64,000 bases of DNA, from contig NC_043013.1 in the NCBI RefSeq assembly GCF_006345805.1, positions 32,116,001 through 32,180,000 of the forward strand, read 5' to 3'. Positions 37,281 to 38,530 of this stretch are shown here, one piece after another. Positions within the stretch are counted from its first letter, which is position 1. Each line of letters opens with the position of its first letter. The notes under the pieces are model-generated. The model saw only the letters and a list, made by a program, of their open reading frames with translations. It was not told where the DNA came from and made no database searches. A program made the position numbers and the translations under genes. The stretch comes from Octopus sinensis (lineage: Eukaryota).

Positions 37281-38481
37281 AAAGAATACCCAAGGATAAT
37301 TTCATATATAAGAGTGAAGGTGTGTAATTCTATATGCAGCTATTTATGTCTTTAATCAAATATATATTCTCTCCATGTATATATGTACATTTATAAAAAT
37401 GCATTCATTTAAATACGTATGTTTAAATGTGAGTGTGTGTGTGTGAGTGCAGTTAATTAAATATAGTAGTTAATTAAGTATATGGTATACACCTGGTAGT
37501 TTGCTGGTAAAGTACATTCACTGCTTATGGTTAGCTGAAGCCATCAGCGGTCTTGTTATGAATGTACGTTTGTACGGACGTGAATACCTGCGCCAGGCTG
37601 CGAGTTTTGATGCGATGGTATATCCATACCTTCTAACGGTTATATGTAATAATTTTTTTTCATTTTATTGTATATTTGTTTCTTTTGTGCATCTGGTCTT
37701 TGCCAGATACACGTCATATCCGTCATTTTGCCATTTCACTCTATGAAACTCAAGACCTAAATCTTGTACAGGTTAAAAATTATAAGAAGTAAATAAAATA
37801 AAGAAAGAAATGAAATTATCCACATCCTCTCTGTTTGAGAAATTGGATGCAACTGATGAGGAACAGAATACAAACTGAGATTCAAAATTATGAAGTTGTA
37901 GAAATGAGAAACTTTGTCTGTGTATGGATATGAATACACAATTGCATGTACATACATACATATATATATACATATATAATATATATATATAAATGTGTCT
38001 ATATATAAATGTATATAAATGTGCATATATATATAATATATATATATATATATATATGCATATGTTTCTTTGTGCGTATGCATGCATATTGATTTTAGTC
38101 AATGACATATATTGTCAATGAAATATACGTGGATAGAAAAGGTGAAAACAGCCTGACTAGCTTTAGAGATTTGGAATTTTGTCAGAAACTTAGAACTGTC
38201 CTTAACGTTCCCTAAAGAGACAACGCATTCGTTAAAGGCTAAAATGTAGTGATCAGTCCATTTTTCACATATATAAATCATTCCTGACAGCTAGATCGTT
38301 AACTGCATTATTGGTATACTACCATGTTCTACTTTCATGCTATACTATAGAACACAAAACTAGAAACTTTAATCACACGATATATACACACACACACACA
38401 TATATATATTATATATATATATATATAGATAGATAGATATATGTATATACATACTTTATTTAAAGCAGCAGAAAATTCAAC

Positions 38482-38528
38482 AAAACCTGTTACTCTGAGT
38501 TTCCCGTTGCCGTTCATCGGACAGTTTT
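38482..38528 (-). ncRNA. Solo minimal hammerhead ribozyme (U4C core) in a ~78-bp island within (TA)n
   Basis: aaaactgt-CCGATGA-a-cg gcaa cg-g-GAAAC-tcaga-GTA-acaggtttt. Confidence 0.75.
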
Positions 38529-38530
38529 GC

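What the first reader, a model, noticed from the sequence alone, without database searches (positions are those of the whole stretch)
38453..38530. 78-bp solo hammerhead island inside a long (TA)n, U4C core
Seen: the only complex sequence in this microsatellite reads (minus) CUGU-CCGAUGA-A-CG GCAA CG-G-GAAAC-UCAGA-GUA-ACAG, followed by a ~30-nt tail ending aataaagt. It shares the CCGA core and the AACUCAGAGU stem III with the 40.7/42.0 kb motifs although stems I and II differ entirely. Inference: U4C plus this stem III is a conserved lineage feature rather than decay, and this insert is close to a minimal mobile ribozyme unit.
Basis: partly seen in the sequence, partly recalled or inferred. 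Interest (0 to 1): 0.75.

Follow-up and report, generated by a model that had tools for sequence, protein, structure and literature searches.

The report
Penelope transposon tip with variant hammerhead
This 78-base island is the cut-short end of a Penelope-like jumping gene, one of thousands of such copies in this genome, and its predicted self-cutting RNA motif carries an unusual core letter that several families of these elements kept while multiplying, so the variant likely still works, though cutting was not tested.

Summary
Confirmed: window 38453-38530 (minus) is a minimal type I hammerhead with core CCGAUGA (U4C) and palindromic stem III ACUC-A-GAGU, between (TA)n tracts. It is not an independent mobile ribozyme. 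It is the last 78 bp of a Hydra-clade Penelope-like retroelement. A full unit with the same C4 hammerhead, RT and C-terminal GIY-YIG lies at L176. C4 is inherited, not decay: 1,155 exact CCGA copies, 2,848 CTGA, and only 45 CCAA as the CpG control. C4 is the old state in this family and later reverted to U4. In the 40.8/42.05 kb family the change ran U4 to C4. Another family set stays U4 (96 of 100 listed). The shared stem III is old Hydra-clade sequence, also listed with U4 in coral and sea cucumber. Among 163 C4 copies, subfamily-level changes hit 5 of 7 free positions and 0 of 31 core or paired ones, so the C4 fold stayed under selection. U4C is already known from a viroid, where it slows cleavage. 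Cleavage is untested, and this subfamily is predicted to misfold. Verdict: new variant of a known kind, moderate interest.

The parts
38453..38530 (-). 5'-truncated pseudo-LTR tip of a Hydra-clade Penelope-like element (my 'family A', subfamily C4-U7-G): hammerhead plus short tail
   Evidence: same 3' end AAATAAAG|TATA as the full C4 unit L176
38521..38530 (-). stem I 5' strand CUGU (38524-38521) with extension GCAAAA; the 5' junction at TA|GCAAAA is a recurrent truncation point
38514..38520 (-). catalytic core C3-C4-G5-A6-U7-G8-A9; the variant C4 is base 38519
   Evidence: genome counts
38504..38513 (-). extra A, 2-bp stem II CG/CG closed by GCAA tetraloop, and the variable base before G12 (G here; U in old copies, A in the U4 subfamily)
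38501..38503 (-). G12-A13-A14
38492..38500 (-). palindromic stem III ACUC-A-GAGU, predicted to pair between two hammerhead copies
38490..38491 (-). predicted cleavage site, after GUA (between 38491 and 38490)
   Evidence: hammerhead consensus applied; not tested
38481..38490 (-). stem I 3' strand ACAG, bulged G, extension UUUUG
38453..38480 (-). short tail ending at the nearer of two element 3' ends (the farther lies 69 nt on)
38400..38452 (.). (TA)n-rich target flank
38531..39145 (.). (TA)n target flank
40719..41809 (-). separate insertion of a second Hydra-type family ('family B'): 5'-truncated RT-thumb/GIY-YIG ORF piece, 3' UTR, C4 hammerhead at 40800, short tail
41808..42205 (+). inverted pseudo-LTR arm of the family B insertion, C4 hammerhead at 42052, long tail

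Best explanation
The island is the last 78 bases of a Hydra-clade Penelope-like retrotransposon, likely pasted into the TA repeat as a very short reverse transcript by the parent's own reverse transcriptase and GIY-YIG nuclease, and its C4 hammerhead is an inherited variant predicted to cut slowly and only as a dimer. SHOWN: (1) full 3.3-3.5 kb parents exist with C4 and with U4; (2) copies end at either of two fixed 3' points, and inverted pairs almost always carry one of each; (3) 5' ends pile up just upstream of stem I and are rare at the cleavage site; (4) C4 is the old state of this family, U4 a later subfamily, with the reverse order in family B; (5) within C4 copies, subfamily-level change avoids core and paired positions. 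INFERRED: the nuclease nicks (TA)n; reverse transcription starts at an internal tail site, as shown in vitro for a lizard Poseidon element; it copies uncut RNA through the hammerhead and stops about 6-10 nt past stem I; the cDNA joins the target by TA microhomology, or meets a second arm and gives an inverted pair. In the parent RNA the two pseudo-LTR hammerheads would pair through the palindromic stem III, and C4 would lower but not abolish cleavage (about 0.6 that C4 forms still cleave). This solo copy has no partner with a matching stem I nearby and is probably inert.
For: Parents: L036 (U4, direct repeats 3,345 bp apart) and L176 (C4 at the 5' repeat, CpG-type CCAA at the 3' repeat, 3,486 bp). 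Hydra motifs RWK, CxCX5C, CxxC, CxH and YRDD in L176, DKT in L036, matching Craig 2021 section 11. Atlas first hits 0.98 (one named RT-domain; RVT_1 and GIY-YIG in other hit clusters at 17-45% of members). Counts CTGA 2,848, CCGA 1,155, CCAA 45. C4 travels with its own ORF lineage: 14 of 14 ORF ends at 92.3% or more to a C4 ORF and with a hammerhead in view are C-type, 9 of 10 at 92.0% or less are U4; C4 ORFs form one 100/98 clade. Oldest layer 17 of 17 C4; one other species shows 4% T at position 4 and lacks the U4-linked alleles. Family B: old copies U4, young C4 clade 97/87. Selection: 5 of 7 free vs 0 of 31 constrained positions, Fisher p=4e-5; with the core left free, only positions 4 and 7 show amplified alternatives in the first 100 of 4,839 matches. 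Ends: 43 of 50 inverted pairs long+short, none long+long or short+short; 134 TA-joined ends at CTA|G vs 8 at the cleavage site; family B 16 of 33 5' ends within 13 nt of stem I. Literature: internal RT starts and uncut RNA as template (PMC11167929); minimal dimeric PLE hammerheads (PMC4209133); U4C slow but viable in a viroid (PMC3088659).
Against: No cleavage or expression data. Folding predicts that this subfamily traps its own core: C3-C4-G5 is unpaired with median probability 0.02 in the dimer for C4-U7-G (61 copies), against 0.26 for U4 and 0.41-0.67 for older C4-with-U forms. Stem II is 2 bp, lacks G10.1-C11.1 and has an A/G mismatch at its base. Paired positions within family A are invariant, so there is no compensatory change; covariation exists only between families. 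Against the tail (5 of 35 columns once two end artefacts are dropped) the 0-of-31 contrast is weak, and many copies were collected with patterns that fix part of the motif. A deep mutational scan found all CUGA changes low in activity except the C3-G8 swap (PMC9901934 passage). The ORF tree is only midpoint-rooted. Every full parent I saw has frameshifts. Pfam gives only a weak GIY-YIG hit for family B (E=0.011) and none for family A. The insertion steps are borrowed from another PLE clade.
Confidence: 0.85

Rival explanations
1. Same element, but C4 hammerheads no longer cleave: the fold is kept for a non-catalytic job (binding the element's protein, pairing the two pseudo-LTRs, or setting where reverse transcription stops), and position 4 drifts because cutting is dispensable.
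For: Hammerhead mutants did not affect insertion in vitro for the anole element. Only 8 copies begin at the cleavage site, 4 C4-linked and 4 U4-linked. The core is predicted to be sequestered in C4-U7-G, and family B's CCGAAG can pair with CUUCGG in its own stem II. Naiads thrive without canonical hammerheads.
Against: All catalytic positions (G5, G8, G12, C3-G8, A15.1-U16.1, H17) stay fixed across C4 subfamilies and unrelated families. Position 4 takes C or U and almost never A or G (1-4 per 100 listed), which fits a chemical constraint. The youngest family A subfamily went back to U4.
Confidence: 0.3
2. One reading: the 78-bp piece is an independent minimal mobile ribozyme (a mini-retrozyme or SINE) that copies itself as a unit.
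For: 134 copies share the same TA-joined 5' end; one trio of such copies about 198 bp apart on contig C21 looks tandem.
Against: The solo copies include U4, C4-U7 and C4-C7 forms (42 U4 and 58 C4 of the first 100 listed by my count), so they arose repeatedly from different parents. They have no promoter or terminal repeat of their own. Both ends match recurrent truncation points of the full element. Self-cleavage would cut the unit in two.
Confidence: 0.04
3. C4 is a local mutation or CpG artefact in a dead copy.
For: CCGA contains a CpG, and some T4 copies with C4-linked neighbours are CpG decay (e.g. L077, L171 inside the family B C4 clade).
Against: 1,155 exact C4 copies. Only 45 CCAA, so decay cannot make 2,848 CTGA from CCGA. 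C4 is linked to other diagnostic sites and to its own ORF clade.
Confidence: 0.01

Closest known systems
Hydra-clade C-terminal EN+ Penelope-like elements (Craig et al. 2021, PMC8557442), e.g. Hydra-2_Amil, Hydra-1_Ajap, Hydra-1_Obim
   Same: RWK, DKT, CxCX5C linker, no CCHH, CxxC and CxH, (TA)n target, hammerhead near the 3' end. Hydra-2_Amil has the same stem I (CTGT/ACAG) and ACTC-G-GAGT; Penelope-3_HM has ACTC-A-GAGT (File S2).
   Different: Every Hydra hammerhead listed in File S2 has U4, found with a CUGANGA descriptor. These families are not among those listed, are longer (3.3-3.5 kb vs generally under 3 kb), and have thousands of C4 copies.
Minimal, dimer-dependent PLE hammerheads (Cervera and de la Pena 2014, PMC4209133; Lunse et al. 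2017, title only)
   Same: Type I, short stem I, extra base after A9, palindromic stem III, mostly solo or close inverted copies from truncated elements.
   Different: C4 core (the 2014 paper reports U3-A8 as the amplified core variant in the parts I read); 2-bp stem II without G10.1-C11.1.
Natural U4C hammerhead of a viroid (cited in Perreault et al. 2011, PMC3088659); CYGANGA descriptors in virome surveys (PMC13481778)
   Same: Same core change; reported as much slower in vitro yet sufficient in vivo.
   Different: There it is a rare variant in a ribozyme of a replicating RNA. Here it is fixed in master lineages of several retroelement families, with switches in both directions.
Poseidon element of the green anole (Frangieh et al. 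2024, PMC11167929)
   Same: Two internal RT start sites that give an optional tail, AT-rich targets, uncut RNA as template.
   Different: Different clade; the tail here is 69 nt; the 5' pile-up at stem I and the strict long+short pairing were not described in the parts I read.
Non-LTR retrozymes
   Same: Small, non-coding, type I hammerhead, derived from PLE pseudo-LTRs (preprint 10.64898/2026.07.22.740005).
   Different: Retrozymes are tandem units; this is solo or inverted, TA-flanked, and made afresh from each parent subfamily.

Membership tests
Type I minimal PLE hammerhead | core C3 U4 G5 A6 N7 G8 A9 | tested here: not met
   C at position 4, the rest intact; U4C is a known natural variant
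Type I minimal PLE hammerhead | G12 A13 A14, A15.1-U16.1, H17 | tested here: met
   GAA-A...GU-A; fixed across 163 C4 copies apart from scattered single changes
Type I minimal PLE hammerhead | stem I joining the 5' and 3' ends | tested here: met
   CUGU/ACAG plus extension; 99 of 109 vs 1 of 109 slid control
Type I minimal PLE hammerhead | stem II with G10.1-C11.1 | tested here: not met
   2 bp (C-G, G-C) with an A/G mismatch at the base; A-U in old copies. Two-pair stems II are known
Type I minimal PLE hammerhead | short palindromic stem III for dimer formation | tested here: met
   ACUC-A-GAGU; arms fixed, centre varies U/C/G/A
Type I minimal PLE hammerhead | active double-hammerhead fold favoured | tested here: inconclusive
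   MFE is the double hammerhead for U4 copy L036, but the core is mispaired for the window copy; prediction only
Type I minimal PLE hammerhead | site-specific self-cleavage | not testable with these tools
   needs a bench assay
Penelope-like element (EN+) | single ORF with RT and C-terminal GIY-YIG in the parent | tested here: met
   L036, L176 (frameshifted); Atlas leads; Pfam weak or none
Penelope-like element (EN+) | pseudo-LTRs with hammerhead, 5' truncation, inverted arms, optional tail at one end | tested here: met
Hydra clade | RWK motif and DKT in place of DKG | tested here: met
   RLRWKAF in L036 and L176, SDKTRN in L036; L176 is frameshifted at this motif
Hydra clade | CxCX5C linker; CxxC and CxH near the EN end; no CCHH | tested here: met
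   CNCKNESSC, CNLC, CRH, and no Cys between the GIY and YIG equivalents in L176; some copies have CNF in place of CNC
Hydra clade | insertion into (TA)n | tested here: met
Hydra clade | RT phylogeny groups with Hydra elements | not tested
   only a by-eye comparison with the published Hydra proteins
Non-LTR retrozyme | head-to-tail tandem units each with a hammerhead | tested here: not met
   solo here; other copies solo, inverted or ORF-linked
Non-LTR retrozyme | abundant circular RNA | not testable with these tools
   only contigs of unconfirmed type were available

The most novel reading that the evidence does not exclude
Position 4 is a tuning switch in Hydra-clade retroelements. C4, helped by a core-sequestering helix, slows self-cleavage so that uncut RNA survives as template, and master lineages flip between U and C in both directions. 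The hammerhead fold itself marks where short 'strong-stop'-like cDNAs end, seeding more than ten thousand solo and inverted ribozyme cassettes, about half with a core that CUGANGA searches cannot see.
Probability: 0.2. Interest if true: 0.7.

Novelty: new variant of a known kind. Interest (0 to 1): 0.42.

Why it matters
The role of hammerheads in Penelope-like elements is open: in the one element tested in vitro, cleavage was not needed for insertion. This genome supplies natural matched pairs, U4 and C4 subfamilies of the same element that both amplified by the thousand, with the switch running in opposite directions in two families. They make 'is cleavage needed, and how much?' directly testable. 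It also shows that PLE surveys using a CUGANGA descriptor miss a large share of these motifs (5,982 C4 vs 4,264 U4 for one stem III; about half of 4,761 for another). The single 78-bp copy itself is an ordinary truncated insertion.

Tried and rejected
Rfam scans of the window, the island and a U4 copy gave no hammerhead family, so they are uninformative. CpG decay as the source of the U4/C4 mixture was rejected. A coding constraint was rejected: the core AUG opens an 18-29 codon upstream frame, but old copies have ACG there. A splice acceptor (TTCTAG|C) as the cause of the 5' pile-up was disfavoured: older copies have TAA in place of TAG yet end at the same place, and junctions show no shared upstream exon. 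A productive dimer with the 40.8 kb hammerhead on the same strand was rejected by reasoning: stem III matches, but stem I must pair across partners and does not. A cleavage footprint in copy ends: only 8 copies, no U4/C4 difference, and confounded by TA microhomology. Expression: no RNA holder listed; the contigs laid cannot show RNA ends. PDB sequence search for family B gave 0 hits. Pfam for family A gave nothing relevant. The Fisher test printed used rough hand counts and is not used. Earlier scan notes: nothing on this genome or sequence; the eight notes concern other elements. Lunse et al. 2017 could not be read. Family D polarity was not resolved.

Full report
OBSERVATION. The minus strand at 38530-38453 is as described: stem I CUGU/ACAG with an extension, core CCGAUGA, an extra A, a 2-bp stem II with a GCAA loop, GAA, ACUC-A-GAGU, A17, then about 28 nt of tail. 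TA tracts flank it. A whole-window scan found the two other C4 motifs at 40800 (-) and 42052 (+); it missed the island itself because it demanded a pair directly after A9. Rfam misses both this and a U4 copy. Hammerhead numbering and the GNRA label are standard usage that I recall; 'family A, B, D' are my own labels.

IT IS THE TIP OF A RETROELEMENT. A search of G000 (2.72 Gb; likely an octopus-type cephalopod, inferred from by-eye likeness of family B's protein to Hydra-1_Obim) returned near-identical copies on many contigs. Their contexts are solo in (TA)n, inverted pairs, or continuing upstream. Two direct copies 3,345 bp apart (L036, U4) enclose a frameshifted ORF with RT and C-terminal GIY-YIG motifs. 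L176 is the same with C4: hammerhead, long tail running into the ORF, then a 3' repeat ending AAATAAAG|TATA exactly like the window copy. The two units are 88% identical over 2.8 kb. The protein has RWK, DKT, CxCX5C, CxxC, CxH and no CCHH, the diagnostics of the Hydra clade, which targets (TA)n. Pfam found nothing for family A and a weak GIY-YIG for family B; the Atlas gave 0.98 neighbours, with RT and GIY-YIG leads. The 40.7-42.2 kb structure is a separate insertion of family B, 42% identical to A in protein.

HOW THE 78-BP PIECE ARISES. Copies have two 3' ends 69 nt apart. Of 50 inverted pairs, 43 have one long and one short end, 7 involve a damaged end, and none has two alike (one tandemly duplicated pair is counted twice). 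This matches the two internal RT start sites and optional tail shown for the anole Poseidon element. 5' ends cluster at stem I: 65 of 113 family A copies begin within 15 nt upstream of it or in it, 18 in the next 44 nt, and 30 run further (copies had to contain the core). In family B it is 16 of 33. Exact TA-joined ends number 134 at CTA|G but 8 at the cleavage site, so uncut RNA is the usual template. The 134 include all subfamilies (42 U4, 58 C4 of the first 100 listed, my count), so they are repeated truncation products and not a lineage. Whether the stop is the RNA's 5' end or an RT stall is open.

C4 IS INHERITED AND SWITCHES BOTH WAYS. Exact counts: CTGA 2,848, CCGA 1,155, CCAA 45, reversed controls 0. 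C4 is linked to G before GAAA and G after ACAG, U4 to A and A. It tracks its own ORF lineage (14 of 14 vs 9 of 10; five further loci had no hammerhead in view and one was the query) and forms one clade in a 38-row tree rooted only at the midpoint. The most diverged copies are C4 (9 of 10 at 10% or more, none U4; 17 of 17 in the old layer). Divergence from group majority is 9.4% for the pooled old layer, 2.0-3.5% for later C4 groups and 1.7% for U4; the last gap is small. Contigs of one other species show 4% T at position 4 and lack the U4-linked alleles, against 56-81% in three others (summed contig depth, rough). So U4 here is likely a reversion. Family B is 84 of 100 listed C4 among 3,381; its old copies are U4 (pairwise 0.154) and its young ones a C4 clade (0.047; 97/87 support on 102 columns, bootstrap not settled). 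Old B copies were partly picked by a U4 pattern, but the neutral pattern gave the same picture. Family D, with stem III ACAGCTGT, is 48 C, 48 U, 4 A of the first 100 of 4,761 and also Hydra-like. Families with ACGATCGT are 96 U, 1 C, 3 A of the first 100 of 1,099, so C4 is family-limited. ACTC-N-GAGT with U4 is listed for coral, sea cucumber and Hydra elements: stem III is older than C4.

IS THE C4 HAMMERHEAD STILL DOING SOMETHING? Among 163 C4 copies (of 213 distinct), alleles shared by 5 or more copies and not of CpG type occur at N7, the loop II N, the base before G12, the palindrome centre and the stem I bulge. That is 5 of 7 positions free by hammerhead rules and 0 of 31 core or paired ones (p=4e-5). 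The tail shows 7 of 37, two being end artefacts. With the core left free, only positions 4 (60 T, 39 C, 1 G) and 7 (17 C) vary in bulk among the first 100 of 4,839 (my count). Limits: patterns fixed part of the motif when copies were collected, though free complementary halves, and no compensatory pair change occurs within the family. Against activity: the dimer MFE is the double hammerhead for U4 L036 but has the core paired to CGG for this copy; ensemble medians for C3-G5 unpaired are 0.02 (C4-U7-G), 0.26 (U4) and 0.41-0.67 (older C4). U4C strongly lowers activity in vitro yet allowed viroid infectivity, and a mutational scan found CUGA changes low in activity. PLE hammerheads are slow even as dimers, and the anole one needed protein. 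I put slow dimer cleavage of C4 forms at about 0.6.

NOVELTY. The element class, the minimal dimeric hammerhead, TA targeting, the tail and inverted arms are known, and so is U4C as a natural variant; one virome survey uses CYGANGA. The PLE papers I read used CUGANGA and list only U4 for Hydra. Searches showed no report of amplified C4 PLE families. Lunse et al. 2017, on PLE hammerhead variants, was not held and may cover it.

PAPERS SEEN. PMC4209133: main text parts 1-2 of 4, passages of supplement file 2, file 1 not searchable. PMC11167929: parts 1-2 of 4, no supplement. PMC8557442: passages, section 11, supplement part 2 of 59 and passages. PMC3088659: passages and section 8. Preprint 10.64898/2026.07.22.740005: part 1 of 5, supplements closed. 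PMC9901934, PMC6155905, PMC6765202, PMC6466107, PMC8782182, PMC6962438, PMC7461866, PMC13481778: passages only. Lunse 2017: title in reference lists only.

VERDICT. A real, ordinary truncated insertion that exposes a moderately interesting family-level fact: a normally fixed catalytic-core base toggles U/C in actively spreading Hydra-type elements while the rest of the fold is kept. New variant of a known kind; interest 0.42.

Noticed in passing
window 35560-35990 (cores at 35697 - and 35773 +): Another inverted pseudo-LTR pair with a canonical U4 hammerhead (CTGAAGA, stem III ACGATCGT) in TA repeats; this stem III group has 1,099 matches and is almost purely U4.
   Followed up: partly
window 40719-42205: Family B Hydra-type insertion. 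Family B looks very young: L182 keeps a 556-aa open frame. Its RT motif reads YKDD in place of YRDD, and its C4 core CCGAAG can pair with CUUCGG in its own stem II.
   Followed up: yes
G000:C21:10389050-10389471 (listed): Three C4 solo-type copies on one strand about 198 bp apart: a possible retrozyme-like tandem array born from the short cassette.
   Followed up: no
L010:1874-1975, L234-L253: Older family D (stem III ACAGCTGT, 4,761 matches), about half C4, with a Hydra-like ORF remnant in L235.
   Followed up: partly
L172:1522 and L157:1193: Two further C4 hammerheads with unrelated stems I and II, so probably more C4 families.
   Followed up: no
L036:1754-1810, L176:1202-1291: The AUG inside the core (A6-U7-G8) opens an 18-29 codon upstream frame about 200 nt before the main ORF start in U7 subfamilies; absent in older C7 copies.
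   Followed up: partly
window 39780-40370 and 25035-25544: Tandem pieces of a common dispersed repeat (about 190-bp period at 25.0 kb), unrelated to the hammerhead.
   Followed up: no
window 59940-60368 (-): 142-aa stop-free stretch resembling a PIF1/Helitron-type helicase piece (resemblance recalled, not tested).
   Followed up: no
window 9833-10531 and 32036-32425 (-): Stop-free stretches with a CxxC...H zinc-finger-like motif, like the end of a LINE reverse transcriptase (resemblance recalled, not tested).
   Followed up: no
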